Source: a virus (Duplodnaviria; Caudoviricetes). From it: 64,000 nucleotides of DNA. How positions within the stretch are numbered: position 1 is the stretch's first letter; every line of letters starts with the position of its first letter. A model generated the notes under the pieces. It saw nothing but the letters and a program-made list of their open reading frames with translations, was not told the DNA's origin and did not search any database. The translations under genes and the position numbers were made by a program. Below are positions 34,070 to 49,384 of this stretch, one piece after another. The DNA lies in the IMG/VR virus record IMGVR_UViG_3300031992_000019, one strand, 5' to 3'.

Positions 34070-34387
34070 TTAGCCGTTAGAGGCTGCTTTTGCCTTGTCG
34101 GTGTTGTAATTCTCATACTGGCGATTCCAAGCACCCTTGTTGAGTTTTGAGAGATAGTTCCCGTAATCTCCTTGGACACCTCCAGTCTTTTCCACATCGT
34201 TCTTGAATGCCTTCGTGCCTATTATATTCTCGATATACTGGTCACGAATCCTCTGCGCCTTTTCAAACCTACCAATCCCCCGATTGTCATTTTCGTTGGC
34301 TATAAGCGAATTGGCGGCATTCATCCATATCCTCCCAAGCTGCGCATCTATGTCATTGATGGACTTTGTTCTTTTCCTTGTTGCCAT
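34070..34387 (-). CDS. MATR-family basic protein (ends AASNG)
   Basis: MATRKRTKSINDIDAQLGRI. Confidence 0.85.
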   Translation of the reverse strand: MATRKRTKSINDIDAQLGRIWMNAANSLIANENDNRGIGRFEKAQRIRDQYIENIIGTKAFKNDVEKTGGVQGDYGNYLSKLNKGAWNRQYENYNTDKAKAASNG

Positions 34388-34391
34388 AGCC

Positions 34392-34658
34392 TTATCCGTT
34401 AGAACCCGTCATATACGCCCTACGGGAGTATTTCGTTGCAGATGCAGTTCGCCAGTTCTGCGCGTTCTCGTTCTTGAAACGCGACTGCTTCTTGATGTTA
34501 GCGGAGTATTTCCTCTCCGCACCGATTGCCCTGTCGAGCATCTTGTTGTACCTCTCCTTCGAGATAGTGCCGTCCGAATATCGGTCGAGAACCAGCTTGT
34601 AGATTCTATCCGTCTGCTTGCGGATGTCATCCAGTGATTTCCTTCGTCTTGTTGCCAT
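34392..34658 (-). CDS. MATR-family basic protein (ends TGSNG)
   Basis: MATRRRKSLDDIRKQTDRI. Confidence 0.85.
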   Translation of the reverse strand: MATRRRKSLDDIRKQTDRIYKLVLDRYSDGTISKERYNKMLDRAIGAERKYSANIKKQSRFKNENAQNWRTASATKYSRRAYMTGSNG

Positions 34659-34815
34659 AACTGTTTGTTTTTGCGCAAAGATAGTTAAAATTATCCTAAT
34701 TTTAGATTTGCTATTTGAAAACTATCGCACTTTGTGGTTTTGTGCTATAAAAGGCGGGAGTTCATCGCCCCCGCCCCCACAAACACACACTAATCACACT
34801 ATGAAGATTATATTT

Positions 34816-34845
34816 TTATCCTTTTCCTCCCTTGGCTTTCGCCAT
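34816..34845 (-). CDS. micro-ORF MAKAKGGKG
   Basis: read from sequence; lies between MATR genes. Confidence 0.4.
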   Translation of the reverse strand: MAKAKGGKG

Positions 34846-34856
34846 ATAGGTCTTTT

Positions 34857-35222
34857 TTATCCGTTTGACGCGGCTCTCGCCTTGTCAGTTGTATAATCTA
34901 CGTACTTTCGGTTAGACACCCTTTTGACAGCCTTATCCAGTCTTTCTTCTGCCGCGTCATATTTGTCCACTGGGCCTCTACCTCTATAATAGTTTCGCTC
35001 GCGTAATGCTCTGCTATGCTCTTCCATATCTTTTTGATGGATTGCGGTTTTCCTTATGTTGTTGAAATACCTTTGCGTAGCATTTTCGACCGCTTTGAGC
35101 CTCCTTGTTAATATTTGCTCATCTCCACCTTCTCGCCTCCTTTTATCTAAAAGTTCCGCGATTCTGGACTCTTGATTTCGCAAGTCTTCTAATGACTTTG
35201 CCCTTTTCTTTCTTGTTGCCAT
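34857..35222 (-). CDS. MATR-family basic protein (ends AASNG)
   Basis: MATRKKRAKSLEDLRNQESRI. Confidence 0.85.
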   Translation of the reverse strand: MATRKKRAKSLEDLRNQESRIAELLDKRRREGGDEQILTRRLKAVENATQRYFNNIRKTAIHQKDMEEHSRALRERNYYRGRGPVDKYDAAEERLDKAVKRVSNRKYVDYTTDKARAASNG

Positions 35223-35247
35223 ATTGTTATCCTTTATTAAGTCCCAT

Positions 35248-35793
35248 TTAACCTACTATTAGAGATGATTTGCCTACAAGCGAGGAGATTCTTCTTTCAG
35301 TCACGTCACGCAGCATATTCTTTGTAGCGATAGTAACATTTGAAAGGGACTCCTTTAGGCTTGATATCCTCTTGTAGAACCCAGCAGTGTGCATTGTTTC
35401 TATCTTGAGGTATCTGGTGTCATAGTGATGCACAAACTCGTGTAGGAGTGTGTCGGCAAAACTCTTTATGGACACCTTCTTCCCAGTCTTGGCAGTGGTG
35501 TTATAGATGACAATGGAATCCTTTACCCCACCTCCGTGACGATAATACCCGTATGTCTGCCCACCTCCGCTACTTCTCCTCGGTCTTTCAGTCACATAGA
35601 CTTTTGGGGAATTTATCTTGTATTGCTTACACAAGTCATCGACCAGAGCTTGAGCAGCCTTTTGCCTACTGCCCTCGTCCTCCTTGGCTTCAAGCAGCTT
35701 TGAGAATAGCGATTTCTTGAATCGTTTCTTCTCAATGGTCTCTATGCTATTGCTCCTCTCATAGTCGGTCGATGTTGTCCTTCGCGTTGCCAT
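35248..35793 (-). CDS. MATR-headed zincin metallopeptidase (SprT/WLM-like)
   Basis: TLLHEFVHH...HTAGFY; ends LIVG. Confidence 0.75.
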   Translation of the reverse strand: MATRRTTSTDYERSNSIETIEKKRFKKSLFSKLLEAKEDEGSRQKAAQALVDDLCKQYKINSPKVYVTERPRRSSGGGQTYGYYRHGGGVKDSIVIYNTTAKTGKKVSIKSFADTLLHEFVHHYDTRYLKIETMHTAGFYKRISSLKESLSNVTIATKNMLRDVTERRISSLVGKSSLIVG

Positions 35794-35794
35794 A

Positions 35795-36175
35795 TTAAGT
35801 TGTTCCTTGCGACTTGGATGCGGTGACGTACTTTGTCACATTGTCACGGAGTGCATTACTGCCCCTATCTACCGTGTCATACTTGGTATAGAGAAGACGC
35901 TTTGCGGTATTATTTCCGAGCCTACTCATATTGTAGAGCCTCTGCGCGGTATTCCCAGGCGAGAACTCTGGCTTGAGTCCTCCATCGGAGGCTTTGCTTA
36001 CATCAATCATAAGCCTACCTGCAGATGTCTTGTTCAGCCTCCTCTGCATCTCGTTGCCCAGTGCGCGGTTGATGCGGTTATAGTTGCGACTTCCGTACCT
36101 TGCCCCGTATGTTCTCTCCATACGATTAGACTGCTCTACCAAGTCGTTGATTGATTTCTTTCTTCGTGTTGCCAT
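35795..36175 (-). CDS. MATR-family basic protein (ends SQGTT)
   Basis: MATRRKKSINDLVEQSNRM. Confidence 0.85.
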   Translation of the reverse strand: MATRRKKSINDLVEQSNRMERTYGARYGSRNYNRINRALGNEMQRRLNKTSAGRLMIDVSKASDGGLKPEFSPGNTAQRLYNMSRLGNNTAKRLLYTKYDTVDRGSNALRDNVTKYVTASKSQGTT

Positions 36176-36177
36176 AA

Positions 36178-36477
36178 TTAACCTTTGTTTAACCCCCGAT
36201 AGGTGTTCGGGGAGTATTTCCTATTCAACTGCTTGCTGACGATTTCGTCCCTCTTGACACCCTCCGCGCCCGCGAACTTGTCATCAAGCCTACGGAAGGA
36301 CTTCGAGTTGGATATATTCCTCTGGTAGTTCCTCGCGGCGGTCAATGCCCTCCTATATCGCCTGTATATTGGAATGGCAATCTCATCGGGTTGGTTCGCT
36401 CCCCTACTCAATGCCATCGTCCTAATTCTTTCAAGCTGCGCCTCTATGTCGTTTACGGATTTCTTTCGTGTAGCCAT
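36178..36477 (-). CDS. MATR-family basic protein (ends GLNKG)
   Basis: MATRKKSVNDIEAQLERI...RKYSPNTYRGLNKG. Confidence 0.85.
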   Translation of the reverse strand: MATRKKSVNDIEAQLERIRTMALSRGANQPDEIAIPIYRRYRRALTAARNYQRNISNSKSFRRLDDKFAGAEGVKRDEIVSKQLNRKYSPNTYRGLNKG

Positions 36478-36478
36478 A

Positions 36479-36775
36479 TTATCCTTTGTTTAGTCCAACC
36501 GCCTTGGTGGTGTCGGGATTGTTGTAGCCAGTATATTTCTGATTCAAGTTCCTCCACGCCCTCTTTCCGTATTCGGTCGGGGTGGCATCACCATTTCGAG
36601 CCTCCCTCACGCGGTTCAACAACCTTTTCCCAGTCTTGCTATTGTCTATGTTGTTCACATAGTTGGAATATATGCGGTTTATCCGCTCCGCTCTTTCGGG
36701 GGAGGGGCTGTAGTCATACAATAACCTACCGCGCTGAATGGATAGGTCGTTCTTGGATTTCGCTCGTGTCGGCAT
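36479..36775 (-). CDS. MATR-family basic protein (MPTR variant, ends GLNKG)
   Basis: MPTRAKSKNDLSIQRGRL; start downstream of promoter 36798. Confidence 0.8.
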   Translation of the reverse strand: MPTRAKSKNDLSIQRGRLLYDYSPSPERAERINRIYSNYVNNIDNSKTGKRLLNRVREARNGDATPTEYGKRAWRNLNQKYTGYNNPDTTKAVGLNKG

Positions 36776-36916
36776 AACTTTTATTTTTTTTCTGCTGCAA
36801 AGATACACACTTATCATATTGTGCAATCAAATACCCATCCGATAGTTTGCACGATAAAAATTTGTGCATAATGTAAACAATTTTCGGACTTGTGCGTTAT
36901 AGAAGAAAAGAGAGTT

Positions 36917-37126
36917 ATGACAGTTTTAGAACAAGAACTTTTAACAATGGCAAAGAGTTTCTTTGCGCACTACAACAAAGAGGGACTGCGTGAGAGAGTA
37001 GCGACACAGGTCTTCTCCAATGTTTACGCGACTTATGACCACATCCCGAGTGAAGAACAGACAAAGAGGCTGGCATCCGAGGCGGTAAAGGCTGCGGACA
37101 TCCTCATTAAAGAGTTGGACAAATGA
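36917..37126 (+). CDS. hypothetical protein
   Basis: LA.EAV.AAD.LI.EL motif; start MTVLEQ. Confidence 0.65.
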   Translation: MTVLEQELLTMAKSFFAHYNKEGLRERVATQVFSNVYATYDHIPSEEQTKRLASEAVKAADILIKELDK

Positions 37127-37518
37127 AAGAGATTATCGCTAACGACATCCTCAATTACATCGAGGATTCACTTAAAGGACTTTCCTTCAACGACTACACC
37201 GAGGTCGCCCTTATGGTGGGTGACAAGTTGGGCAACGCAATGATTAAGGACTTCAAGGCTTATGACAACATCCGCTCCAAGAGGATGGAACGGCTCGAAG
37301 CCGAAATCGCGAGACTCAAAGAAGAACTCGAAGAAGAGAAGGCAAAGAACGACCATCAGGAGAACTTCTACCTCTCCCAGATAGCCATCCACAACATCAA
37401 CACCGAGAACGCGCACCTCGTCAAAAGACAGAAGGACGCGATAACCAACATGAGAAGGTCTTACCGAGCCACCATCAAGGGACTCCAAGACCAGATTGAC
37501 AATTACAAGAATATATGA
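37123..37518 (+). CDS. coiled-coil hypothetical protein
   Basis: 131 aa, coupled. Confidence 0.65.
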   Translation: MKEIIANDILNYIEDSLKGLSFNDYTEVALMVGDKLGNAMIKDFKAYDNIRSKRMERLEAEIARLKEELEEEKAKNDHQENFYLSQIAIHNINTENAHLVKRQKDAITNMRRSYRATIKGLQDQIDNYKNI

Positions 37519-38724: not shown

Positions 38725-39501
38725 CTATCGCTTTGTTGGATGGTTCTGGCGAGATGTATAGTTCCAACCGAATCTCTTGGCTACCCTCTTGTTAAGTTCG
38801 TTGGCCATATATACATCAGTTCTATCAGTGACTTGGGCATCCCAACCCCTTCCTTTACGAATTAACTTCAATCGACCCCTTTGGTGCTCGTGTAATGCTA
38901 TCTCCTTTCCAAGTTTTGCCGCCTCTATTTCATAGGCTCTTTTTACTTGTGCAGGAGTTGCTCCCCATCCGTTTTTCGGTCGTTTGAAGGAGAAAGTAAA
39001 GGTAGGAGTTGCGGCACGCATTTCTGCCGCATTCCAAGCCACCGCAGAAATCATATCGTCTTTGCTGAATGAGTGCCCAATTCCACCGAATCCTTTTTTG
39101 CCTATTGACAAAGGATGGTTGTGAGTCAAAACGATATTCTTCTTGGCTCCGAGCATCATAAGGGCAAGTTGTTCATACTGGTTAGGCTCAACCTTATTGC
39201 CCTTTCCTTGTTTGCTAAAAAGTTTGTTGCCATTCTCATCAAAGACGTGAAGCTGCTCATCGTGAAGATTGCGAGTGTTTTCCTCTACATCTGATAATGC
39301 CTTCTTGAGACCCTCGCTATGACCTACCTCGGTGTCATGCTTGGAAAGTTCCCTTTTAGCCTTCATCTGGACACTTACCGATGGCTTCTCGTACTTTTTC
39401 TTCTTGTCGGAGGCATAGGACAGACTACCGAAGCCTATCTGCGGTTTCGTATAGACCTTCTTCGGTTTCTCCTTGCGATACTTGTAGATTCCTTCTGCCA
39501 T
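38725..39501 (-). CDS. JAB/MPN-like metalloprotein
   Basis: E (DEQLHVFD) ... THNHP ... SFSKDD matches the JAMM E..HxH..S..D pattern. Confidence 0.65.
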   Translation of the reverse strand: MAEGIYKYRKEKPKKVYTKPQIGFGSLSYASDKKKKYEKPSVSVQMKAKRELSKHDTEVGHSEGLKKALSDVEENTRNLHDEQLHVFDENGNKLFSKQGKGNKVEPNQYEQLALMMLGAKKNIVLTHNHPLSIGKKGFGGIGHSFSKDDMISAVAWNAAEMRAATPTFTFSFKRPKNGWGATPAQVKRAYEIEAAKLGKEIALHEHQRGRLKLIRKGRGWDAQVTDRTDVYMANELNKRVAKRFGWNYTSRQNHPTKR

Positions 39502-39502
39502 A

Positions 39503-39862
39503 TTATCCTTGGTTTCTACCCATATAGGTGTTACGTGAATACTTGCGGTTCATCCTCTGCCAATAGTATTTTCCCGCCTTTTTCATTATTTTCCTATGCT
39601 TCTCCAACTCTTTGCGCTCCCAAGGTGTAGGTTCGTGGAAGATAAGGTCAATCTTACTGGCTCGGTTAAGTTCGCGATTTTCCTTCTCCCTCGCATTGCT
39701 CGCACTTTTCGTTCTTCGGATATTACCCGAATACCTAAACGTGATGCCCTCGGCACGCCTTGCCCTCTCTCTGCTACTTTCAGTGCCAAGTTCCTCGGCA
39801 AGCCTTTCTATTCGTGCCTGCTGTTCTATCAAGTCTTCTATTGACTTTTTACGTGTAGCCAT
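39503..39862 (-). CDS. MATR-family basic protein (ends GRNQG)
   Basis: MATRKKSIEDLIEQQARI...RKYSRNTYMGRNQG. Confidence 0.85.
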   Translation of the reverse strand: MATRKKSIEDLIEQQARIERLAEELGTESSRERARRAEGITFRYSGNIRRTKSASNAREKENRELNRASKIDLIFHEPTPWERKELEKHRKIMKKAGKYYWQRMNRKYSRNTYMGRNQG

Positions 39863-39866: not shown

Positions 39867-40304
39867 TTAACCCGCTGAAAGTCCTTTTGATTTCCTTTTT
39901 GCCCTATACTCTGCGCGACTTGACGATGGAAGGGAGTTTATCACCGACCTTGCTTTCTCTGCGGAGTCAATCCCCCATTTGTTTGCATCAATGTCAAGCC
40001 GCTTTCCGTTGCGGAAAATCTCATAGGCATATTTATCTACCCTTTTGACCTCATATCCGTTATGGGAGAAATTGTTGGTGTTATAATCCCTATCAATGGC
40101 AGCTTTCGTCTTGGTTATATCAAACTGGTCACCGATATTCAGGTCGAGGCCTTCTCCATAAGGTGTTTCCACACTATACTGCCTACCGCCATCGGCTGAT
40201 ATGTTGCGTATAGTGTACCCCTTGTAATTCTCACTATAAGATGATGGGGAGATATAAGCCACATCCCCATCGTCACCGCTTGTAAGTCTAATTCGTCTTG
40301 CCAT
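39867..40304 (-). CDS. cargo-bearing member with SSRAEYRA...GLSAG tail
   Basis: C-terminus shared with 40713..41579. Confidence 0.75.
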   Translation of the reverse strand: MARRIRLTSGDDGDVAYISPSSYSENYKGYTIRNISADGGRQYSVETPYGEGLDLNIGDQFDITKTKAAIDRDYNTNNFSHNGYEVKRVDKYAYEIFRNGKRLDIDANKWGIDSAEKARSVINSLPSSSRAEYRAKRKSKGLSAG

Positions 40305-40712: not shown

Positions 40713-41579
40713 TTAACCTGCTGATAATCCTTGCGCTCTTCTGCGTGCGCGATATTCCGCTCTTGAACTTGCCTTTGGTTTGGGTGCTCTCGGTGTGTCG
40801 ATGAGTTTCTGGGCATACCGCCTATCCTCGGCTTCGCGTTCCTTGTCGGCAATGGCACTCATAACGTCCTTGAGTTCGCTTGGTCGGATTCTCAAGTCGC
40901 TATGCCGTGTCCTTGTGCGCTCCCCATCAAAATAATGCTCCGCTGGGATGGTTTTACCCCTTTCAAGTTCATCAAGCGAGATAGCTTCGTCTCCGTCAGT
41001 AGAATCACCTTGCCAATAGACATTCGCCCAGTATCTTCCCTTGTTGTCTTGATAGACACTATCTATGCGATGATTCCAGTTGAACTTCGTGTCTATACGT
41101 CCCGTGCGCTTGTCAGGTTGAGAGGACACATACCGCTTCAAGGCATCCATTCCTCCGTTTCTTAATCTCTCGGAGTTGGTGTGTTCGCTTTCGGGGACTC
41201 TGTTAGACCTACGGAGTTCCCTCGCATAGGCATCCACATCACTCACGCCAGTTCGCGTGGCTCTATCCACCTTGAAATCGTCGTTGTAGGCAAGGGGAAT
41301 GCGGTCGTACCTTCTTTCGTAGCGATTCCACTCCTCGCGCACACTCGTTACTGGCGACTTCTTTCTTGTGGTGTTGAGATAGGAATTTGCAGTTCGTCCA
41401 GCATTCCTCACCCTTCGCTCCATATCGTAGGTGTGCGGATTGTAGTCATTGGTGTCCCGATAACCGCTCTCCCTCCACTTGCGTATCTGGGAATCGGTCA
41501 TACCGCCAAGCCTACCGATGCGCTCTATCTGCCTAACGATGTCGTTGTAGGACTTTCCCCTTTGTCTTGTCTTTGCCAT
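40713..41579 (-). CDS. large MATR-family protein (ends GLSAG)
   Basis: MAKTRQRGKSYNDIVRQIERI...SSRAEYRARRRAQGLSAG. Confidence 0.85.
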   Translation of the reverse strand: MAKTRQRGKSYNDIVRQIERIGRLGGMTDSQIRKWRESGYRDTNDYNPHTYDMERRVRNAGRTANSYLNTTRKKSPVTSVREEWNRYERRYDRIPLAYNDDFKVDRATRTGVSDVDAYARELRRSNRVPESEHTNSERLRNGGMDALKRYVSSQPDKRTGRIDTKFNWNHRIDSVYQDNKGRYWANVYWQGDSTDGDEAISLDELERGKTIPAEHYFDGERTRTRHSDLRIRPSELKDVMSAIADKEREAEDRRYAQKLIDTPRAPKPKASSRAEYRARRRAQGLSAG

Positions 41580-41782
41580 AGCTTAAAATTGTCTTACCTT
41601 GCCGCTCCCACCGATGGGATAGGTCGGGGAAGGAGTATTCTTTCCCCAACTGATGCTCCTTGTGGTGGAGTCGCGCTGAATGTCCTTTAGGACGCTATTG
41701 TTGTGAGTTGATGGTTTCATGCCGCAAAGATACGCGATATTACATTCCCACAATCAATTTTCTTTCGTCAAGATGCACAATA

Positions 41783-42160
41783 TCATTTTGTGCGGAAATT
41801 CCTCACCATTTCGGCCAATCCGACACGCTTGAGGACATAAAGGAACTCATGGACATAGCGGACATGGATGCGCCAATCGTCATTGTTCTTCTCATAGACC
41901 TTGGAGTAGTACAACACCCCGCTCTCAAACCACCTGATACACGACCCACCAAATATCATCTCAACGAACGCGCCCTTGTCCGTAAACCCGTTCAACAAAA
42001 GCATTTCCCTCGTCAAAGGAATAGGCTCAAGCACCGACGCGTCATAGTTGTTCATGTTCTCGTCCGTGACCTCGTTGAAAGTGCCGTTGATACCGCACAC
42101 CACGATAGGTTTCCCCTTATAGGAGACCCTATCAAGATAACACAATTCAGTGATATTCAT
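41783..42160 (-). CDS. hypothetical protein, paralogue of 26102..26458
   Basis: LEPIPLT..LLLNGF...RYVHEF. Confidence 0.7.
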   Translation of the reverse strand: MNITELCYLDRVSYKGKPIVVCGINGTFNEVTDENMNNYDASVLEPIPLTREMLLLNGFTDKGAFVEMIFGGSCIRWFESGVLYYSKVYEKNNDDWRIHVRYVHEFLYVLKRVGLAEMVRNFRTK

Positions 42161-42779
42161 CTTCTACAAAATATTTGCAAATTATACCATTCTGCTCAAC
42201 AAAGAACTGGAAGGAGGCATTGAAATAGTTTGGTTTCGGATAGTTCTTATCCCAAGTGTTTCTGCCCATCTTTCCGTCTTGTTGGTTCTTTATATCCCTC
42301 ATCTCGGTCTTGTTGGACGCATAATGCAACCCCAATCTGTATCTGGCATAGAAAAGACACTTATTGCGGAGGTGACAATACCCGTTCACGCAGCTTATCC
42401 GCTTATCCTTAATCTTGTAGTCTTGCGGAAGGTCTATTGCCCTCACAAGTCCTTCATATTGCTGCCAGAAATACTCTAATGTTTCTTCATCATTCATTTC
42501 TCTATCATTTTTAATGCAAGAGGCTTTTGGGAGACATCGGTCATCTTCTGTATCGCCCACCACCTCAAGAAATCTCGTGAAATATCTCTCTTCACCCACC
42601 GATTCGATGAGGAATACTCAAAAATCACGTCATAGCCGTGGTTCATGCCCAGACCTTCGTTGCTTATCTCGGCATAATCCACGACCCATAGTTTACCATC
42701 GGGACAGACCTTCTTGATATACATCACCTCGAAGGAGTATCTGTTTCTCTTGAAGATACAATCCCCGACACCTATCCTT

Positions 42780-43091
42780 TTAGCCTCTTCGCGGTTCATG
42801 CTCTTCGAGATATTCTATGAGGAGTTCACCCCGTTCCTTTATGTCTTGGATGGTTTCAAGTATATCCACCGCCAAGTCCTTGTCATCCTCATCGGAGGAA
42901 CACAATAGTTCGTCAGCAAGGCTCTTGACCATCTCGGATGTCTTTATGTACGCATCCAGCAACAGGACAAGGGCATTGTGGCTTTTCAGTTTGCCGCCCT
43001 TGACCTTATCCAAGCATTGCGTCTCCATCTCGTTGTAGCCATTGAGCATAGCCTCGGAGGTGTGACGCAGTTTATATCCGCTATCCGTCAT
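42780..43091 (-). CDS. hypothetical protein
   Basis: 103 aa. Confidence 0.6.
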   Translation of the reverse strand: MTDSGYKLRHTSEAMLNGYNEMETQCLDKVKGGKLKSHNALVLLLDAYIKTSEMVKSLADELLCSSDEDDKDLAVDILETIQDIKERGELLIEYLEEHEPRRG

Positions 43092-43436
43092 ACTTTTCTT
43101 TTATAACGGACAAAAGGGCATTTTCTTTACGTGTATTGCAAGATAATCGTTTGATTTAATGTTTACGATGCAAGGATGTTCTTTCGCTCTTCGGGGGAGA
43201 GTTCTATCTTCAGCCGTTGCCCGAAGATGTCCCAGAGTTCTACCTCTTTGCCCCCGATGATGTCCATCATCCCGAAGGGAGTGTCGGCTTCTGCCTCGAA
43301 ATAGTCCTTCTCGACTATCGTCAGCAGAATCCTCTCGTTTTCGAGCCGTACCGCGTCTATTTCAGCCAAGGGTACATTTCTACCGCCCACAAGGTAAAAC
43401 CCCTCAAAAACGGCATCTATCGGCTTGTACGAGCCT

Positions 43437-43739
43437 TTAACCTTCGCGTTCATACAACTCGAAGTGGATATCGTCCACAAGGGACTTGATTCGGGACTCG
43501 TACTCTTCGTCATTCTCTTCTCGCTCGTGGGTGAGCCACACCTCGCGCAGATGGGTCATGAACTCGACTTTCCAGCCTACAAACGCACCGAAGAACGCGG
43601 AAAGGTTTCCAGCATCTTCGGGCAAATCGGACACCTCAAATTTCTTGATGTCCTCGACTCTTTCTCTCTTCACCTCTTCGGGTGTGAGACGGGCAAGGCA
43701 CTCTTGTACCTCGCCCTCTGGGTAGTTGTACTCTATCAT
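43437..43739 (-). CDS. hypothetical acidic protein
   Basis: likely start MIEYNY after hairpin 43762. Confidence 0.6.
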   Translation of the reverse strand: MIEYNYPEGEVQECLARLTPEEVKRERVEDIKKFEVSDLPEDAGNLSAFFGAFVGWKVEFMTHLREVWLTHEREENDEEYESRIKSLVDDIHFELYEREG

Positions 43740-43770
43740 ATTAAAAAGCGATATAGTTAAAGGCGGTTGG

Positions 43771-44124
43771 TTAGACCGCCATACCCTTGATTTTCTTGTT
43801 AGCTTTCTCACACTCACCGAACTCGACCTCGAAGGTGTTGCCGAAGTTGTCGGTAGCCTCGCCCGAAACAAGGTTGAACCCGATGATGTGGTTGTCGGCT
43901 ATGTCAGCACCGCCATTTGCCACAATCTCGAACTCGCCAGACTCGCCAATTACGTCTAAAATGTATTCGGGGTACTCGCCATCTATTGTGAAGCCATCTA
44001 CCTCGAAGTCATCTACCCATACCTTCTTGATGTTCTCTATGGGGACAATCTTGCCCTCGATGATGTAACTTTCTTCGCCAGTGACCTCGATGTTGCGCCA
44101 CTCATTGTTTACTAATGCCTTCAT
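43771..44124 (-). CDS. hypothetical acidic protein
   Basis: likely start MKALVN after the conserved leader. Confidence 0.65.
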   Translation of the reverse strand: MKALVNNEWRNIEVTGEESYIIEGKIVPIENIKKVWVDDFEVDGFTIDGEYPEYILDVIGESGEFEIVANGGADIADNHIIGFNLVSGEATDNFGNTFEVEFGECEKANKKIKGMAV

Positions 44125-44291
44125 ATTAAGAGGTATTACTCGGGTACGTTGCCCGCTCGGTCGCAAGACTGATTCTTTTGACACCGCAAATGTACGATAT
44201 TATATTGGATTAAGCAAGATTATTTTATAGTTTTATCCAATATATGTATAGTTTTAACCAATATTAACGCGATTTGTAATGTCCAATAGAC

Positions 44292-44328: not shown

Positions 44329-44348
44329 GTCAAAATAAGCAATGAAAG

Positions 44349-44927
44349 TTAACCAGTTGATACTGCGCGGTAGGGTGCTGGACGACCGTTGCCGCGTCCT
44401 GTGAGTGCGGTGATTTCGTCCTCGGATGCTCCGTTTGCCCTCAATGTGGCTTCGAGCCTTGCGAGTGCTTCGGGTGAACGCTTGTCGTTGTTCAAGCCTA
44501 CCCTTACGTAATAGTCGCGCTGGCGGCGGTTGGCTTCGCTTGTCATCCTTCCGTTTTCGCCCTTGCGTGTGCCGCTCTGCCTCTTGTTGCCCTTGGAGTC
44601 GAGAACTGCCGTTCCGTCATCGTTCTTCGGGGTGAAGAGGTTGGTCTTGGCGTTCTTGGTGTCCGTTCCAATGAGCCTTCCGTTCTCATCGCGCTTGGCT
44701 ACCGCCAGTTTGCCGCCCTTTGAGGTGGTGGAGTCTGCGGTGTACCTTCCGTCCTGATAGTTCTGGTTCATTGCGCCCATAGAGGAACGTCCATCGGTAC
44801 GGGTGTGGTAAGGAGTGTTGCCGACCTTCGTCACGTTATAGTGCTTGACCTTGACACCCTTGCCCCTCAACTTCTCGTCGAGTTTCTGCCCGAGTTCTGC
44901 TGTCCTTTTCGGTTTTCGTGTTGCCAT
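44349..44927 (-). CDS. MATR-family Gly/Arg-rich protein (ends AVSTG)
   Basis: MATRKPKR..., NRRQRDYYVRVGL; adjacent to the PP-loop enzyme. Confidence 0.8.
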   Translation of the reverse strand: MATRKPKRTAELGQKLDEKLRGKGVKVKHYNVTKVGNTPYHTRTDGRSSMGAMNQNYQDGRYTADSTTSKGGKLAVAKRDENGRLIGTDTKNAKTNLFTPKNDDGTAVLDSKGNKRQSGTRKGENGRMTSEANRRQRDYYVRVGLNNDKRSPEALARLEATLRANGASEDEITALTGRGNGRPAPYRAVSTG

Positions 44928-44969
44928 ATTATTTAGTTAATTTAAGTTTCACGCTGCAAAGATAGGGGT

Positions 44970-45707
44970 TTATTCCTCTTCGCAATCATTTTCATCCGTT
45001 TCACTTTGCACTATTCTTTGTTGTGCAAGTTTCCTTCTCTCCGCTTCGTCATACTCAAAGAGAATAGTCCTCGCAAACGGAAAGACTTCGTAGATTTTCA
45101 GCAGGTCTTGGGGGTAGTTCTCCCTCAACCAGAGAAAGCAGTCCTTCGAGAATCCCACACCCGATGATGCCTTTAACGAGTACCTCACGGGTTCGGGGAT
45201 GCCCCTATTCTTCATATACAAAAGAATCTCCTTCTGCGTCCAGCTCGCCAACGGATAGACCAGACCCTTGTTGATGTAGTCGCTCTCCTTGTAGGTGTTG
45301 AGCATAAGCCTTCGGTTCATCGAGTCGGCTTTCTTCATACCCAAGAAGACATACTCCACATTATAGGTCAGCCTTATCGTCTTTATCACGTCGTCCAACT
45401 TAATCAACTTGACATTCGGGTCGGGTGCGCAGTAGAGTCCGCTCCTCAATACATAACTTAACGTCCAATGGGGGATTTCCACGAACTCTATATTCGGATA
45501 TCTCGCCTTCGTCCAGTTTATCCATCTTTGGATGTGGTCTAACCCCTTGACGAAATACATGAAGAAACACACTATCCTATTGAATTTCGGATAGCACAAG
45601 TCCAAGGTCACGAGGGAGTCCTTTCCTAACGACAGTCCTATCGCTATCGTGTCGGTCTGCTCCCTCACCTTGTCAATGACCAGATTGGCTTCTTGCAGCT
45701 TGTTCAT
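44970..45707 (-). CDS. PAPS-reductase-like / PP-loop adenine-nucleotide alpha-hydrolase
   Basis: IGLSLGKDSLV (SxGKDS), LGMKKADSMNRR, YPLASWT. Confidence 0.88.
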   Translation of the reverse strand: MNKLQEANLVIDKVREQTDTIAIGLSLGKDSLVTLDLCYPKFNRIVCFFMYFVKGLDHIQRWINWTKARYPNIEFVEIPHWTLSYVLRSGLYCAPDPNVKLIKLDDVIKTIRLTYNVEYVFLGMKKADSMNRRLMLNTYKESDYINKGLVYPLASWTQKEILLYMKNRGIPEPVRYSLKASSGVGFSKDCFLWLRENYPQDLLKIYEVFPFARTILFEYDEAERRKLAQQRIVQSETDENDCEEE

Positions 45708-45910
45708 CCCACACCCATATAAGTGGTTCGCGAATACTTCTTGTCATACGCATCCCTCCCCTTGAATGAAGGGTGCTTGATGATGTTGTCCGTGTATCGG
45801 TCTGCCGCAATGTTCGCCCTGTCCACACGTTCCTTGGTGGCGCGTGGGTGGTTCTCAATCCTCTCTGCTTGCGCGAGGATGTCGGAAAAACTTTTCTTTC
45901 GTGTTGCCAT
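45704..45910 (-). CDS. MATR-family basic protein (ends YMGVG)
   Basis: MATRKKSFSDILAQAERI; coupled between the ParB-like and PP-loop genes. Confidence 0.85.
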   Translation of the reverse strand: MATRKKSFSDILAQAERIENHPRATKERVDRANIAADRYTDNIIKHPSFKGRDAYDKKYSRTTYMGVG

Positions 45911-46731
45911 TACTCTTCGTCTTCAAATGAATCGTCAACCAGTGGTTCGCATCGCATCTCGAAGTCCTCCCCCTTGATTGTACGGCTATAAGGGTCGTAG
46001 TTGAATTTCTGGCAGAAGGCGGCTTTCGCGTTGAAGGTGGAGAAACTCAACACGAGGAAGGCATCCATATTCTGCGCGTTCTCGACGGCTTGCTCACGGA
46101 CTTGCTGCTTGACATCCTTCATGTGCTGCACCCTCTGCTCCCTCGTCATCTCCTCCTGTGCAAGTCTTTCGGCTTCCTTTGAGGCTTCGCGGATGGCGGC
46201 TCTCTCGGCTTTCTCCTGCTCATGCTGCTCGTTTACTGGAGCCATAAGGTCATCCAAGGCATTTCGCGTGTCTGACTGCCCAGCCGTCTTGTAGAGGTCT
46301 TCCAAGCCAATCATTGAAAGGTCGGCTTCGGTGAGTCCAGCATCCTTGTAGTCGATGTCGGGAACGATGGCGGCTAACTTGTCGAAGTCCCACTGCCCTT
46401 GCGCGTTGGGGTTGTTCAAGAGGATAAGGAGCGCATCCGCATCCTTCTTGTCCAAGTCCACCACATCGCAGCGAATCTTGTAGTCGGTTTCGGGTGTGCC
46501 GTCGTACTTCTGAATCTCGTCCATGATGGTGAGTCGCTGGTGTCCAGAGAGGAGCGTGTAGCCGTACCTCTTGTTTACAACGATACCTCCCACCAGACCG
46601 AACTTCTTGATGCCCCTCTTGAGCTTCTTCTTGGATTCGGGGTCGATACGTCTTGGGTTGTTCTCGCTGAATTGGATTTCGGAGCGCATCAGTTCGATGT
46701 TCTCCGAGGTGAAAAGTTCTGATAGTTGCAT
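45910..46731 (-). CDS. ParB/Srx N-terminal domain protein
   Basis: NNPRRI...LKRGIKKFGLVGGIVVN...LLSGHQRL. Confidence 0.88.
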   Translation of the reverse strand: MQLSELFTSENIELMRSEIQFSENNPRRIDPESKKKLKRGIKKFGLVGGIVVNKRYGYTLLSGHQRLTIMDEIQKYDGTPETDYKIRCDVVDLDKKDADALLILLNNPNAQGQWDFDKLAAIVPDIDYKDAGLTEADLSMIGLEDLYKTAGQSDTRNALDDLMAPVNEQHEQEKAERAAIREASKEAERLAQEEMTREQRVQHMKDVKQQVREQAVENAQNMDAFLVLSFSTFNAKAAFCQKFNYDPYSRTIKGEDFEMRCEPLVDDSFEDEE

Positions 46732-46751
46732 TGTGTTTGTGTATTTAGTGA

Positions 46752-47024
46752 TTAACCTTCGTTTCCAGCACGCGCGGAGTAAGACCGCTTGGTCTCATAA
46801 GCCTTGTTCACGGCTTGCCCAGGCATCATACCGCTCTCCACGTTACGTTTGTACTCCCTCTTGACCCTTTCCGAGTTGTTGATGTTTGAAACGTACCTTT
46901 GGGCGATGGCTTTTGCCCTCTTGAGCCACGGGTTGTTGGAGTCATAGTTCTCCACCGCGTTCTCCGCAATCCTGTTGTACTGGTCTATGATGTCCTTTGC
47001 GGACTTTCTCCTACGTGTTGCCAT
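46752..47024 (-). CDS. MATR-family basic protein (ends AGNEG)
   Basis: MATRRRKSAKDIIDQYNRI. Confidence 0.85.
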   Translation of the reverse strand: MATRRRKSAKDIIDQYNRIAENAVENYDSNNPWLKRAKAIAQRYVSNINNSERVKREYKRNVESGMMPGQAVNKAYETKRSYSARAGNEG

Positions 47025-47025
47025 A

Positions 47026-47304
47026 TTATCCTACTCCCATATAAGTTGAACGGGAATACTTCTTCGTGTTGATTTTCGCGATGTCCTCAAAGCTCGCGTT
47101 CTCGCCTTGGCTGGCTACATTCCTATAACCGCTCTGCTTGGCGATGTTTGCCGCATACCTCTTATATGCGTCCTTGATGCGCTTATCCCTCGCGTCAAGC
47201 ACCGCAGCTTGTGACGGGTCTTGCACCCACCTCCTATTTATCGCATTGCGAATCCTCAATGTCTGGTTGATGAGGTCATCCAAAGATTTCTTTCTTGTTG
47301 CCAT
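47026..47304 (-). CDS. MATR-family basic protein (ends YMGVG)
   Basis: MATRKKSLDDLINQTLRI. Confidence 0.85.
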   Translation of the reverse strand: MATRKKSLDDLINQTLRIRNAINRRWVQDPSQAAVLDARDKRIKDAYKRYAANIAKQSGYRNVASQGENASFEDIAKINTKKYSRSTYMGVG

Positions 47305-47305
47305 A

Positions 47306-47602
47306 TTATCCGTTGCTCAATGCCCTCGTTGTCGATGCGTTCTGATAACCCGTGTACTTCTTGCGATAGCCTTCTGCTGCGATAGTCCCGTAGGTCTGAC
47401 TCATAGGTAATATCGTTTTTTTGAGCAGATTCTTCTGGCTTCTCGTACCCACGATGTTCTCGCGATACTTGTCACTGATGTCGTATGCGCGGAGTGCCCT
47501 ATTATAGGCGCGTGGTGTACCAAGTTTTATTGCGAGTGCTCCAATACGCAGCCTCTGTCTGGTAATATCTTCCAGTGACTTTGCTCTTTTTCTTGTTGCC
47601 AT
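47306..47602 (-). CDS. MATR-family basic protein (ends ALSNG)
   Basis: MATRKRAKSLEDITRQRLRI. Confidence 0.85.
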   Translation of the reverse strand: MATRKRAKSLEDITRQRLRIGALAIKLGTPRAYNRALRAYDISDKYRENIVGTRSQKNLLKKTILPMSQTYGTIAAEGYRKKYTGYQNASTTRALSNG

Positions 47603-47604
47603 AA

Positions 47605-47928
47605 TTAGCCTCCGTTTTTACCCATGTAGGTGGATTGTGAATACTTGCGGTTGCGATAAGCATCATAAAACCTATCTGCATCCTCGTAGTTCTTGTTCTT
47701 ACGGGCTTCCTCATACTTAGCCATCATCTTACGGACATAAGGAGACCGCTTGATGATGTTTCGAGTATAATGAGGTTGTGTGAGTGCATTGTATTCCCTA
47801 TTACGGGTGCGATTCAATGCCTCCTCGTCATTGTTCCTCTCGTAACGACCTTGTAATTCCGCCGAAAGGTCTTCTATACGATGCCGTTGGTCAATAATGT
47901 CCTGAATGGATTTCTTTCTCGTTGCCAT
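47605..47928 (-). CDS. MATR-family basic protein (ends GKNGG)
   Basis: internal start MATRKKSIQDIIDQRHRI. Confidence 0.85.
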   Translation of the reverse strand: MATRKKSIQDIIDQRHRIEDLSAELQGRYERNNDEEALNRTRNREYNALTQPHYTRNIIKRSPYVRKMMAKYEEARKNKNYEDADRFYDAYRNRKYSQSTYMGKNGG

Positions 47929-47929
47929 A

Positions 47930-48346
47930 TTATCCTTGTGATAAACCTTGTGACTTGCGGCTTTCTCGGTATAGTTTCCGTTGTGCCGCACGATACGTGT
48001 TGTTAAGTTCACTCTCCGATGCCTCAGACTTGAACCGCCAAGTCCCGTTTGCGCCGTACTCCGTCTTGAGGTTGGTATTCAACCCTTGTCGGGTGGCTGC
48101 GTTGTTAAGCATCCTCCATAGGCGTTGACGTTCAATGTCCGCTTTCCTCTCGTTTCTCAAGGTCCGGTTGTACTCGGCTCTCGCCCCTCGCGCCCTACCC
48201 TTCTTGTTGGTGAACGCATCCCTCAAGTCCCGATGAAAAGTGTTGTTGATTCTGCGGTTTCCCGTCAAATCGCCTGCATAAAGCATATTTACAAGCCTTT
48301 CATATTGCGCTTGTTTCTCGGCTCTCGTCTTTTTTCTCGTTGCCAT
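47930..48346 (-). CDS. MATR-family basic protein (ends GLSQG)
   Basis: MATRKKTRAEKQAQYERL. Confidence 0.85.
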   Translation of the reverse strand: MATRKKTRAEKQAQYERLVNMLYAGDLTGNRRINNTFHRDLRDAFTNKKGRARGARAEYNRTLRNERKADIERQRLWRMLNNAATRQGLNTNLKTEYGANGTWRFKSEASESELNNTYRAAQRKLYRESRKSQGLSQG

Positions 48347-48352
48347 AATAGT

Positions 48353-48400
48353 TTACTTTCCGCAACCCTTGCCTTTGCCCTTACCTTTCTTCTTGCACAT
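48353..48400 (-). CDS. micro-ORF MCKKKGKGKGKGCGK
   Basis: read from sequence; fills the gap between two MATR genes. Confidence 0.5.
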   Translation of the reverse strand: MCKKKGKGKGKGCGK

Positions 48401-48404
48401 AGTT

Positions 48405-48761
48405 TTAAGTGTTTGAGTTAGACTTCGATGCTATGCCCATTCGCTGCTCACGGGTAGCCGATGCTCCCTTGTAGGCTGCGAAAGCCACGTTATCTCCATA
48501 CCCCGCTGCTCGCGCGGTGTTCCTTTCGTAGTTGTCACGCGCATTGCGCACACGCGCCATCCTTTCACCCAACTGGTTGGTTCGGGCGACTGAACGCCCA
48601 TATCCCCTCGCCTCCCAAGGGCTGCGGTAGTTTCTCCGATACTCGGCTTCTACACCCCTCTGGAAGTCCTTCCTTGCTCCCCACTCCCTATCAAGGCTGG
48701 TGAGAATCCTATTGGCTTGCTCGGTGATTTGCTGAATAGTTTTCCTTCGTCTTGTTGCCAT
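48405..48761 (-). CDS. MATR-family basic protein (ends SNSNT)
   Basis: MATRRRKTIQQITEQANRI. Confidence 0.85.
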   Translation of the reverse strand: MATRRRKTIQQITEQANRILTSLDREWGARKDFQRGVEAEYRRNYRSPWEARGYGRSVARTNQLGERMARVRNARDNYERNTARAAGYGDNVAFAAYKGASATREQRMGIASKSNSNT

Positions 48762-48762
48762 A

Positions 48763-49119
48763 TTACCCGTTACTTGCGGCTTTCGCTGCGTTAGTGTTAT
48801 AGTTCACATACTTGCGGTTGTCCATCTTGTCGTAGTACCGATAGGCTTTTTCATCCTCATCCCAATATTTTTCTTCGTTGTCATCCATAAACGCCTCGTA
48901 TTTCGCCGCTTGTGCCTTATTAACCCTTTGCAGGTCGCGCTGGAAAGTGGATGAACCAGTAATGTTGTTGTTATACTCCCTTGCTATGTTACGCGCCCTT
49001 TCCAATCTTCCTTGGTTGCGCTCCCTTTCCCTTGCATAGGGTGAAGTTGCGAGTAACTTGATTCTTGCAACTTGTCGCCTTATGTCAGCGAGGGATTTCT
49101 GCCTTTTCCGTGTTGCCAT
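48763..49119 (-). CDS. MATR-family basic protein (ends AASNG)
   Basis: MATRKRQKSLADIRRQVARI. Confidence 0.85.
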   Translation of the reverse strand: MATRKRQKSLADIRRQVARIKLLATSPYARERERNQGRLERARNIAREYNNNITGSSTFQRDLQRVNKAQAAKYEAFMDDNEEKYWDEDEKAYRYYDKMDNRKYVNYNTNAAKAASNG

Positions 49120-49123
49120 AACT

Positions 49124-49384
49124 TTATGTGTTAGAACCCGCTGCGGTGGCTCTCGTGTAGATTTCCTTGTCGAACTTCCTATCGAGCCTATCCTCTACGG
49201 GGGTGTTCTTGTTTTCCCTATCTATCGCGTTGTTTATGTTGTTGCGATACCTGTTCGCGATTCTCTCAACCCTCCTGTTCCACCTTTCTATGCGGTGTCT
49301 GTCCGCACTCTTCGGGTCAACTGGTCGGATGAGCCTCTGCATCTGCTCGAACAAGTCCCTTATGGATTTTCGTCTTGTTGCCAT
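49124..49384 (-). CDS. MATR-family basic protein (ends AGSNT)
   Basis: internal start MATRRKSIRDLFEQMQRL, downstream of promoter 49399. Confidence 0.85.
   Translation of the reverse strand: MATRRKSIRDLFEQMQRLIRPVDPKSADRHRIERWNRRVERIANRYRNNINNAIDRENKNTPVEDRLDRKFDKEIYTRATAAGSNT

What the first reader, a model, noticed from the sequence alone, without database searches (positions are those of the whole stretch)
34070..49384. Array of ~20 MATR...G basic proteins with putative ligase and proteases: candidate C-terminal-glycine conjugation / virion-cargo system
Seen: 20 co-directional ORFs (68-288 aa). Most share the head MATR(R/K)K..S..D(I/L)..Q..RI and often a central RY..NI. The tails are of the type (R/K)KY...YMG..G, ASNG or GLS.G. 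Seventeen end in Gly, using GGA/GGG/GGT/GGC codons (so selection is on the protein), and three end in Thr. The middles are highly divergent, and some carry larger cargo domains. Genes are tightly coupled (often TAA-T-ATG-GC) in sub-arrays with their own TATCTTTG promoters. Embedded are a PP-loop enzyme, a ParB-like protein, a JAB-like protein and an HExxH protease. Established: PP-loop enzymes adenylate substrates, ubiquitin-like and sulfur-carrier proteins are activated at a C-terminal Gly, JAB proteases cleave after such Gly, and T4 internal proteins use a shared N-terminal capsid-targeting sequence. Inference: a diversified family of DNA-binding proteins is ligated via Gly to DNA or a protein, and/or co-packaged and injected as anti-defence cargo. 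I do not recognise a described system with this make-up.
Basis: partly seen in the sequence, partly recalled or inferred. Interest (0 to 1): 0.92.

Follow-up and report, generated by a model that had tools for sequence, protein, structure and literature searches.

The report
Glycine-tailed basic phage protein array
A 165-kb phage of rumen or gut Bacteroidales carries 23 copies of an undescribed small, very basic protein that nearly always ends in glycine; in related phages this family always lies beside an ATP-activating 'PP-loop' enzyme and a ParB-like protein just before the DNA-packaging genes, so it may be part of an unknown protein or DNA chemistry.

Summary
There are 20 co-directional MATR genes at 34070-49384; 17 end in Gly and 3 in Thr. 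Three more members lie elsewhere in the genome.

- **Family:** it is real, widespread and unannotated. A profile search found 342 cluster representatives. Of the best 150, 139 end in Gly and 124 start Met-Ala. Pfam, PHROG, NCBIfam, PDB and fold searches gave no match.
- **Structure:** AlphaFold2 predicts a helical hairpin in which the conserved N- and C-termini pair with each other.
- **Context:** wherever enough DNA was available, the family sat in one late module: small protein, PAPS-reductase-like PP-loop enzyme, small protein, ParB-like protein, small protein, terS, terL, portal. In 43 of 45 loci anchored on the enzyme, small ORFs ending in G-L-S-x-G occur only inside this module.
- **Other phyla:** Lactobacillus phages carry unrelated-looking basic proteins ending in Gly-Gly in the same slots. 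Riemerella phages have the enzyme pair without them.
- **Neighbours:** the 'JAB-like' neighbour does have a JAB/MPN fold.

Function is not shown. My best model (0.38) is that the PP-loop enzyme acts on the glycine tail. The main rival (0.27) is capsid-internal injected cargo. Earlier notes of this scan describe the same module on other DNA. I found no paper describing it.

The parts
34070..34387 (-). M01, 105 aa, head MATRKRTKS, tail AASNG
   Evidence: profile E 7e-29
34392..34658 (-). M02, 88 aa, tail YMTGSNG; first gene after the promoter at 34676-34683
34857..35222 (-). M03, 121 aa, tail AASNG
35227..35793 (-). M04, 181 aa. MATRR head plus an HEFVHH zincin-like body; ends LIVG. A TAA stop is followed in frame by MGLNKG and a second stop (35227-35247), so a family tail is stranded behind the stop.
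   Evidence: the flanking bases read GGT TAA ATG GGA CTT AAT AAA GGA TAA; Peptidase_M91 E 0.001 and SprT-like E 0.011, both below cut-off
35795..36175 (-). M05, 126 aa, ends QGTT
36178..36477 (-). M06, 99 aa, tail YRGLNKG
36479..36775 (-). M07, 98 aa, head MPTRAKS, tail VGLNKG
38725..39501 (-). JAB/MPN-fold protein, 258 aa. The first 54 residues are predicted disordered and basic. Invariant E..THNHP..GxSFSxxD.
   Evidence: Homologues sit in the same module in L007, L022, L026 and L044.
39503..39862 (-). M08, 119 aa, tail YMGRNQG
39867..40304 (-). M09, 145 aa, head MARRIR, larger body, tail KGLSAG
40713..41579 (-). M10, 288 aa, head MAKTRQRGKS, large body, tail QGLSAG
   Evidence: The sibling-phage ortholog is 95% identical, dN/dS 0.06.
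44349..44927 (-). M11, 192 aa, MATRKPKR head, tail AVSTG
44970..45707 (-). PAPS-reductase-family PP-loop ATPase, 245 aa, with an invariant SLGKDS motif
45704..45910 (-). M12, 68 aa, the minimal member, tail YMGVG. It overlaps the ParB stop (TAATG) and the PP-loop gene's start (ATGA).
45910..46731 (-). ParB/Srx-like protein, 273 aa, with conserved NPR, GGIVVN and SGHQR motifs
46752..47024 (-). M13, 90 aa, tail AGNEG
47026..47304 (-). M14, 92 aa, tail YMGVG; this is the member modelled with AlphaFold2
47306..47602 (-). M15, 98 aa, tail ALSNG
47605..47928 (-). M16, 107 aa counted from the ATG at 47926-47928, tail YMGKNGG
47930..48346 (-). M17, 138 aa, tail QGLSQG
48405..48761 (-). M18, 118 aa, ends SNSNT
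48763..49119 (-). M19, 118 aa, tail AASNG
49124..49384 (-). M20, 86 aa, ends AGSNT; first gene of the longest sub-array
27012..27218 (-). Outlying family member, 68 aa, head MRAKSIKDI, ends RIGQ
34727..34745 (.). GCAC-N11-GTGC palindrome, 43 nt from the TATCTTTG box at 34676-34683
36849..36867 (.). The same palindrome, upstream of the TATCTTTG box at 36798-36805
41775..41793 (.). The same palindrome, upstream of the TATCTTTG box at 41725-41732 (heads M10)
45008..45026 (.). The same palindrome, inside the PP-loop gene and upstream of the TATCTTTG box at 44957-44964 (heads M11).
49449..49467 (.). The same palindrome, placed between divergent TATCTTTG boxes at 49399-49406 (minus strand, MATR array) and 49511-49518 (plus strand, fibre-like operon)
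30042..33957 (-). terS (33217-33957), terL with an intein (31526-33220) and an SPP1-type portal (30042-31523), directly downstream of M01

Best explanation
The MATR...G genes are a 23-copy expansion of an undescribed family of small, very basic helical-hairpin proteins. This family is the variable third component of a conserved late-gene module. The module consists of a PAPS-reductase-family PP-loop ATPase, a ParB/Srx-like protein and 0 to about 20 Gly-terminated basic proteins, all placed directly upstream of terS, terL and portal.

Working model:
1. The proteins bind phage DNA through their variable, positively charged hairpins.
2. The conserved head and tail pack together into one recognition unit.
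3. That unit presents the free C-terminal glycine to the PP-loop enzyme.
4. The enzyme uses ATP to activate the glycine carboxylate as an acyl-adenylate, which is then passed to a nucleophile. The acceptor is unknown. Candidates are an amine on DNA or on a protein, ammonia, sulfur, or the protein's own N-terminus.
5. The ParB-like protein holds the enzyme on DNA at the time of packaging.
6. The JAB/MPN protein and the zincin-like member M04 are optional erasers or processors.

Shown: the family, its conservation, its synteny and its late-type promoters. Inferred: DNA binding, contact with the enzyme, adenylation and the acceptor.
For: 1. The terminal Gly is kept in 139 of the best 150 representatives and in 46 of 47 dereplicated members of the fetched loci, with all four Gly codons used. 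Ala is residue 2 in 124 of 150.

2. Every locus found through a family member that had enough flanking DNA holds both enzymes.

3. In 45 dereplicated loci anchored on the enzyme alone, 43 carry small ORFs ending in G[LMIV][STNAG]xG inside the module. That is 64 such ORFs in the module against 0 of 1,992 small ORFs elsewhere (p = 1.6e-77).

4. M12 overlaps both enzyme genes at its start and stop codons. In other loci the gaps are 0-3 nt.

5. Lactobacillus phages LR1 and JNU_P7 and provirus L122 have PP-loop enzymes only 28% identical to this one. They carry 1-6 basic proteins (pI 10-12), several starting MAR, ending in GKSSG, GSRGG or SGHSGG, in the same slots.

6. The PAPS-reductase family transfers AMP to oxyanions (CysD, FAD synthetase; own knowledge). 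Other PP-loop enzymes, Cap9 and QatC, act on a partner protein's terminal Gly tail (PMC13279940).

7. The accessory protein has a JAB/MPN fold. Its best solved matches are C-terminal-Gly peptidases: PfJAMM1 Z 8.5, BubCD Z 8.2, Cap3 Z 8.1.

8. No E1-like ThiF domain is found in the genome, so the PP-loop enzyme is the only nearby candidate activator.
Against: - No interaction or chemistry has been tested. The complex predictor was not available.
- All the Bacteroidales loci come from one related phage lineage, so their synteny is not independent evidence.
- The Lactobacillus proteins show no detectable homology to the family (best E 0.04 against 11 sequences), so that parallel may be analogy.
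- The enzyme pair exists without such proteins in Riemerella phages and in L125. In a 129-kb relative the PP-loop gene lies about 12 kb from the ParB gene and the family members.
- A sibling phage lacks M12 between the two enzyme genes.
- Three members in the window end in Thr and one ends in Gln.
- Many fast-diverging paralogs look more like arms-race cargo than like enzyme substrates.
- The JAB gene is present in few modules.
Confidence: 0.38

Rival explanations
1. Capsid-internal, injected cargo. The proteins are made late, loaded into the procapsid through their conserved head-tail unit (a targeting signal like the T4 capsid-targeting sequence or an encapsulin cargo peptide), coat or neutralise the packaged DNA, and enter the host with it to blunt defences. 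The PP-loop, ParB, JAB and zincin genes are merely neighbours, or are co-packaged effectors.
For: - Five sub-array promoters carry the same GCAC-N11-GTGC palindrome at a fixed distance from the -7 box. That palindrome also heads a 1,692-aa fibre-like gene and the divergent fibre-like operon.
- The arrays run straight into terS, terL and portal.
- The proteins have conserved ends on hypervariable bodies, some with larger inserted bodies (M04, M09-M11).
- Paralogs turn over quickly between sibling phages.
- pI is about 10-11.
- One homologue of the JAB-like protein is fused to a Phage_Mu_F head domain.
- ParB-like, RadC/JAB and zincin domains are the typical domains of head-packaged 'polyvalent' effectors (PMC5512222).
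Against: - A strict terminal Gly, or Gly-Gly in Lactobacillus phages, is unusual for a docking peptide and typical of C-terminal chemistry.
- In the fetched loci the tail motif occurs only around the enzyme pair.
- No MuF domain is found in this genome.
- There are no virion data.
Confidence: 0.27
2. Non-covalent adaptors. The proteins dock on the ParB-like or PP-loop DNA-modification pair through the head-tail unit. Their variable hairpins steer the pair to different DNA sequences or shield it from different host inhibitors. The terminal Gly is only part of the docking surface.
For: - The synteny is the same as for the best model.
- Phage ParB-like proteins are known activators of DNA base-modifying enzymes (PMC13229309).
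- PAPS-reductase-family proteins act in DNA phosphorothioation (abstracts of PMC11662687 and PMC12914056).
- According to earlier notes of this scan (not checked here), the same genome also splits a methyltransferase into a core plus 16 free recognition modules.
Against: - A helical hairpin with no fold match gives no sign of sequence-specific DNA reading.
- The shortest relatives, about 42 aa and rich in Gly and Arg, can hardly be specificity modules.
- The model does not explain why the last residue is Gly.
Confidence: 0.2
3. Stand-alone DNA-condensing or regulatory proteins (histone-like or late-gene factors) that are unrelated to the enzymes. The shared position is inherited as part of the packaging block.
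For: - The proteins have a strong positive charge and a simple helical fold.
- The whole block of PP-loop, ParB, terS, Terminase_3-type terL and SPP1-type portal is inherited together across phyla.
Against: The model does not explain the lineage-specific but strictly terminal Gly tails, the Met-Ala start, or the confinement of the tail motif to the slots around the enzymes.
Confidence: 0.1

Closest known systems
IbrA/IbrB-type phage cassette (PAPS-reductase-like plus ParB-like genes before the terminase), as annotated in Bacteroides phage BS-TP2, Riemerella phage RAP44 and Lactobacillus phage LR1
   Same: The same two enzyme families, in the same position upstream of terS, terL and portal.
   Different: The function of the cassette is unsolved (own knowledge; the 2002 IbrAB paper could not be read here). 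None of my literature searches found a paper that mentions small Gly-tailed proteins as a third component. This phage has 23 of them.
DndC/DndB, SspD and the BREX type 4 PAPS-reductase proteins (DNA phosphorothioation)
   Same: A PAPS-reductase-family PP-loop protein paired with a ParB-fold protein carrying a DGQHR-like SGHQR motif (abstracts).
   Different: No DndA, DndD, DndE or Ssp partners were seen. Only two Cys are conserved in the enzyme. No small Gly-tailed proteins are known in those systems (own knowledge).
Cap9 with CD-NTase (type IV CBASS) and QatC with QatB: QueC-family PP-loop enzymes that modify a partner protein's terminal glycine
   Same: An ATP-activating PP-loop enzyme encoded beside a partner protein whose flexible terminal Gly motif is essential (PMC13279940).
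   Different: The enzyme family differs (QueC, not PAPS_reduct). In those systems the N-terminal Gly amine is the acceptor, whereas here the conserved Gly is C-terminal. Those are host defence systems and this is a phage late module.
Ubiquitin-like and sulfur-carrier proteins (ThiS, MoaD, TtuB, SAMPs, bacterial Bub/Bil systems) with E1 enzymes and JAB peptidases
   Same: Small proteins with a free C-terminal Gly, an adjacent adenylating enzyme, and an accessory JAB/MPN protein whose best structural matches are Ubl peptidases.
   Different: Helical hairpin instead of beta-grasp. No E1 or ThiF domain in the genome. The tail is G-L-S-x-G rather than Gly-Gly in Bacteroidales phages. There are many divergent paralogs.
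Phage internal or injected proteins: T4 IPI-III, the P1 Dar proteins, MuF-linked and 'polyvalent' effectors
   Same: Late expression next to head and packaging genes, basic DNA-associated proteins, a shared short terminal signal on variable bodies, and ParB, JAB and zincin neighbours (PMC5512222).
   Different: No homology. No evidence that the proteins are in virions. The conserved feature includes the very last residue.

Membership tests
Ubiquitin-like / sulfur-carrier proteins | beta-grasp fold | tested here: not met
   The AlphaFold2 model of M14 (pLDDT 87.9) is a helical hairpin followed by short helices. Foldseek and VIA-align gave only generic helical matches.
Ubiquitin-like / sulfur-carrier proteins | free C-terminal Gly-Gly | tested here: inconclusive
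   The terminal Gly is present in 17 of 20 window members and 139 of 150 representatives. The penultimate residue is mostly N, S, A or K. True Gly-Gly ends occur only in the Lactobacillus-phage analogues.
Ubiquitin-like / sulfur-carrier proteins | E1-like (ThiF/MoeB) activating enzyme encoded with it | tested here: not met
   PF00899 gave no match in the 165-kb genome at E <= 1.
PAPS-reductase family of PP-loop ATPases (44970-45707) | PP-loop motif and a family profile match | tested here: met
   Pfam PAPS_reduct scored 36.1 bits against a cut-off of 22.5. SLGKDS is invariant in 11 orthologues.
PAPS-reductase family of PP-loop ATPases (44970-45707) | catalytic C-terminal ECGLH cysteine of true CysH enzymes (own knowledge) | tested here: not met
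   No such motif is present. The C-termini are variable and acidic.
ParB/Srx superfamily (45910-46731) | ParB N-terminal domain with its conserved Arg/Gly motifs | tested here: met
   PHROG 620 'ParB-like' E 8e-21 and phrog_9353 E 2.6e-75. NPR, GG and (S/G)GHQ(R/K) are conserved in 13 orthologues. Pfam ParB_N scored only 15.1 bits, below its cut-off of 26.3.
JAB/MPN metallopeptidases (38725-39501) | JAB fold with Glu, His-x-His, Ser and Asp metal-site residues | tested here: met
   Model pLDDT is 79.5, and above 90 over most of the domain. All of the top 50 VIA-align rows are MPN/JAB-fold chains, with Z 8.5 (rmsd 3.8, 117 residues aligned) to PfJAMM1. E73/E82, H127, H129, S146 and D149 are invariant in 20 homologues. 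The spacing between HxH and SxxD is longer than the canonical one.
JAB/MPN metallopeptidases (38725-39501) | match to the curated profiles Prok-JAB or RadC | tested here: not met
   No match at E <= 1.
SprT-like / zincin peptidases (M04) | HExxH motif with a family profile match | tested here: inconclusive
   HEFVHH is present. Peptidase_M91 scored 19.9 bits and SprT-like 16 bits, both below their cut-offs of 25 and 25.6.
QueC-family protein-modifying enzymes (Cap9/QatC) | QueC domain and a partner with an N-terminal Gly motif | tested here: not met
   The enzyme matches only PAPS_reduct in Pfam. The partners start Met-Ala, and the conserved Gly is C-terminal.
Capsid-internal proteins with a targeting signal (T4 IP type) | presence in virions and a signal-dependent loading step | not testable with these tools
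   Only the late-type promoter context could be shown.

The most novel reading that the evidence does not exclude
A PAPS-reductase-type PP-loop enzyme, not an E1, adenylates the C-terminal glycine of these DNA-binding proteins. It then joins the glycine covalently either to phage DNA at packaging or to the protein's own N-terminal alanine. The second outcome would give backbone-circular proteins and is suggested by the predicted pairing of the two termini. JAB/MPN and zincin proteins would act as erasers. Either outcome would be a new protein-conjugation chemistry in phages.
Probability: 0.15. Interest if true: 0.95.

Novelty: categorically new. Interest (0 to 1): 0.8.

Why it matters
The 'PAPS reductase plus ParB' pair is one of the commonest unexplained gene pairs in front of phage terminases. 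This work indicates that in gut and rumen Bacteroidales phages, and by position in Lactobacillus phages, the pair comes with a third, overlooked component: small basic proteins with a fixed glycine end.

That gives the unsolved pair a concrete candidate substrate or partner and a simple test: co-express the proteins, weigh them, and mutate the glycine.

If the tail is chemically activated, this would be a conjugation system that works without an E1 enzyme. If the proteins are injected cargo instead, this 23-copy array would be one of the largest phage internal-protein repertoires described. Cultured carriers exist (BS-TP2, LR1, JNU_P7), so the question can be tested directly.

Tried and rejected
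**Family searches on the MATR proteins**
- Pfam, PHROGs and NCBIfam gave nothing credible.
- A PDB profile search gave one chance-level hit at E 1.8.
- Foldseek (best E 2.3) and VIA-align wide (Z <= 5.9) gave only generic helical hairpins.
- The ESM Atlas gave no usable hit.
- A search for longer fused forms found none, which is weak evidence.
- No PP-loop or ParB protein in the fetched loci showed an appended family member; the few over-long ORFs had unrelated N-terminal extensions.
- tblastn of M08 against 50,697 phage records found no match.

**Calls that failed or were unavailable**
- The search for related loci failed with alignments that were too diverse and with a single member.
- The 2002 IbrAB paper is not held. 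Two further literature searches gave nothing useful.

**Cross-phylum checks**
- The MATR profiles do not detect the Lactobacillus basic proteins or BS-TP2 gp53 (E >= 0.04), so homology across phyla is not claimed.
- Riemerella RAP44, contig L125 and Psychrobacter phage Y8A have no Gly-tailed small proteins near their PP-loop or ParB genes.

**Ideas considered and dropped**
- The terminal GGN codon as a nucleotide-level signal for the next gene. Rejected because all four Gly codons and all three stop codons are used.
- Ribosomal-protein mimicry. Rejected because there were no profile hits.

Full report
**What is in the window.** The window is bases 45836-109835 of a 165,288-bp IMG/VR phage record that CheckV rates as complete. 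It has Bacteroidota-type TAnnTTTG promoter boxes.
- They are 68-288 aa, with pI 9.2-11.2.
- Seventeen start MATR.
- Seventeen end in Gly, using GGA, GGT, GGC and GGG, and three end in Thr.
- About 6% of the other ORFs in the genome end in Gly, so 17 of 20 has p = 1.6e-18.
- An alignment of the 16 short members shows invariant M1, T3, K6, Q14 and R17, a near-invariant Tyr in RY..NI, and three tail types: KYSxxTYMGxxG, AASNG and GLSxG.
- Three further members lie outside the stated range: window 27012-27218, and G000 118092-118559 and 118634-118999.
- M04 ends LIVG. A TAA stop is followed in frame by MGLNKG and a second stop, so a family tail is stranded behind a stop codon.

**These are real genes of a real family.** A profile search of 1.84 billion cluster representatives found 342 proteins at E <= 0.001.
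- The best 150 have a median length of 101 aa and a median pI of 10.3.
- 139 of them end in Gly and 124 have Ala as residue 2.
- The consensus is MA(T)RKKS..DI..Q..RI ... RY..NI ... RKYSxxTYMGLSNG.
- Among 47 dereplicated members in the fetched loci, 46 end in Gly, using all four Gly codons and all three stop codons. Selection is therefore on the protein.
- Against a sibling phage (L129), orthologues have dN/dS 0.05-0.33.
- That sibling shows strong turnover. Some members are 94-99% identical, others 66-69%, others are replaced or lost, while ParB and the PP-loop enzyme stay 95-98% identical.
- Pfam, PHROGs, NCBIfam, the PDB and the source databases give the family no name.

**Structure.** AlphaFold2 on the 16-member alignment gives a confident model (pLDDT 87.9). 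It has two long helices forming a hairpin, then short helices, and a beta-bridge between residue 6 of the head and residue 83 of the tail. Head and tail are therefore predicted to form one unit at the base of a variable hairpin, not two separate tags. Foldseek and VIA-align find only generic helical hairpins. The fold is not a ubiquitin-like beta-grasp.

**Genomic context.** Sixteen viral loci, five Bacteroidales or Paludibacteraceae MAG loci and several metagenome contigs were found through family members. Whenever enough flanking DNA exists, they show the same order:
- [small protein] - PAPS-reductase-like PP-loop enzyme - [small protein] - ParB-like protein - [small protein] - terS - terL - SPP1-type portal.
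- One of these contexts is a common integrated prophage.

I also anchored the search on the enzyme alone (80 loci).
- The family profile found members in only 8 of 79 loci.
- Nearly all loci nevertheless hold 36-85-aa basic ORFs with related tails in the same three slots. Examples are ..RRQRYxDLRxSFGLSGG upstream of the enzyme, as in gp53 of cultured phage BS-TP2, and ..GLGLSNG or ..YMGNNNG further downstream.
- In 45 dereplicated loci, 43 have such ORFs. That is 64 ORFs ending in G[LMIV][STNAG]xG inside the module against 0 of 1,992 small ORFs elsewhere (p = 1.6e-77).
- These loci come from related phages, so the count overstates independence.

**Beyond the lineage.**
- Lactobacillus phages LR1 and JNU_P7 and provirus L122 have PP-loop enzymes only about 28% identical to this one. 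They carry one to six proteins of pI 10-12, several starting MAR, ending in GKSSG, GSRGG, GSKGG or SGHSGG. These are interleaved with the PP-loop and ParB genes before terS.
- The MATR profiles do not detect them, so this is a positional and compositional parallel, not shown homology.
- Riemerella phage RAP44 and contig L125 have overlapping PP-loop, ParB and terS genes with no such proteins. A Psychrobacter phage has none either.
- In a 129-kb relative, the PP-loop gene lies about 12 kb from the ParB gene and the family members.
- In this sample the small proteins never occur without the enzymes, but the enzymes can occur without the small proteins.

**The neighbours.**
- The PP-loop enzyme passes Pfam's PAPS_reduct threshold and keeps SLGKDS. 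It lacks the CysH catalytic tail and has only two conserved Cys.
- The ParB-like protein keeps NPR, GG and SGHQR motifs.
- The 258-aa protein at 38725-39501 has no profile hit to Prok-JAB or RadC.
- Its model is nevertheless a JAB/MPN fold. All top VIA-align rows are MPN-fold chains: PfJAMM1 Z 8.5, BubCD Z 8.2, Cap3 Z 8.1, RadC Z 7.8. E, HxH, S and D are invariant in 20 homologues.
- Its homologues sit in the same module in four other loci, and one is fused to a Phage_Mu_F domain.
- M04's zincin assignment is weak.
- The genome has no ThiF or E1 domain and no MuF domain.

**Expression timing.** All five exact GCAC-N11-GTGC palindromes in the window lie 42-43 nt upstream of the TATCTTTG boxes that head MATR sub-arrays. 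The one at 49449-49467 also serves the divergent fibre-like operon. Elsewhere in the genome the same arrangement heads a 1,692-aa fibre-like gene and the two outlying family members. M02 and M01 appear to share a transcript with terS, terL and portal. This fits late expression, which is an inference.

**Interpretation.** A strictly terminal Gly that is specific to each lineage, a Met-Ala start, translational coupling to an ATP-pyrophosphatase, and an optional JAB/MPN protein point most economically to chemistry at the C-terminus catalysed by the PP-loop enzyme.
- PAPS-reductase relatives transfer AMP to oxyanions (own knowledge).
- QueC-family PP-loop enzymes have recently been shown, or proposed, to modify a partner protein's terminal glycine.
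- Phage ParB-like proteins activate DNA-modifying enzymes.

I give this model 0.38. The acceptor is open.

The main rival, at 0.27, is capsid-internal injected cargo. It is favoured by the late promoters, the position before the packaging genes, the paralog turnover, and the resemblance of the neighbouring domains to head-packaged polyvalent effectors. Non-covalent adaptors get 0.20 and enzyme-independent DNA-binding proteins get 0.10. The complex predictor was unavailable, so nothing here tests binding.

**Novelty.** Earlier notes of this scan describe the same module (Gly-tailed peptide, PP-loop enzyme, ParB) on other phage DNA. My literature searches found no paper that mentions the small proteins.

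Noticed in passing
31526-33220: The large terminase carries a Hint/intein-type insert (Hom_end_hint, residues 32-95) ahead of the Terminase_3 domains. Relatives have 768-aa terL genes, which suggests larger inteins.
   Followed up: no
9820-10053: The phage encodes tRNA-Gly(CCC) and tRNA-Arg(CCT).
   Followed up: no
   Followed up: partly
L129:5339-15079: The sibling phage array lacks M12 (there the ParB and PP-loop genes overlap directly) and also M16, M17 and M19. It carries other members not present here. Its M11 orthologue has a different, non-Gly C-terminus.
   Followed up: partly
41783-44184: A block of about seven small non-basic genes separates two MATR sub-arrays. Several match genes in the sibling phage at their ends. 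Function unknown.
   Followed up: no
L022:5781-7293 and G000:159739-160362: Amidoligase_2 (with a GATase gene in L022) occurs in phages that carry the family. This is another carboxylate-amine ligase that could in principle act on a C-terminal Gly.
   Followed up: no
L122:4669-7708: A Lactobacillus-type provirus has six basic proteins (pI 11-12), all ending in S/T-G-x-x-G-G, around its PP-loop and ParB genes. This is an independent expansion of the same kind.
   Followed up: partly
L001:5172-5333: gp53 of cultured Bacteroides phage BS-TP2 (53 aa, Gly/Arg-rich, ends GSNG) lies directly upstream of that phage's PAPS-reductase-like gene. This gives a cultivable test system.
   Followed up: partly
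49449-49518: One palindrome lies between two divergent TATCTTTG boxes, so it may control the MATR array and the fibre-like operon together.
   Followed up: partly
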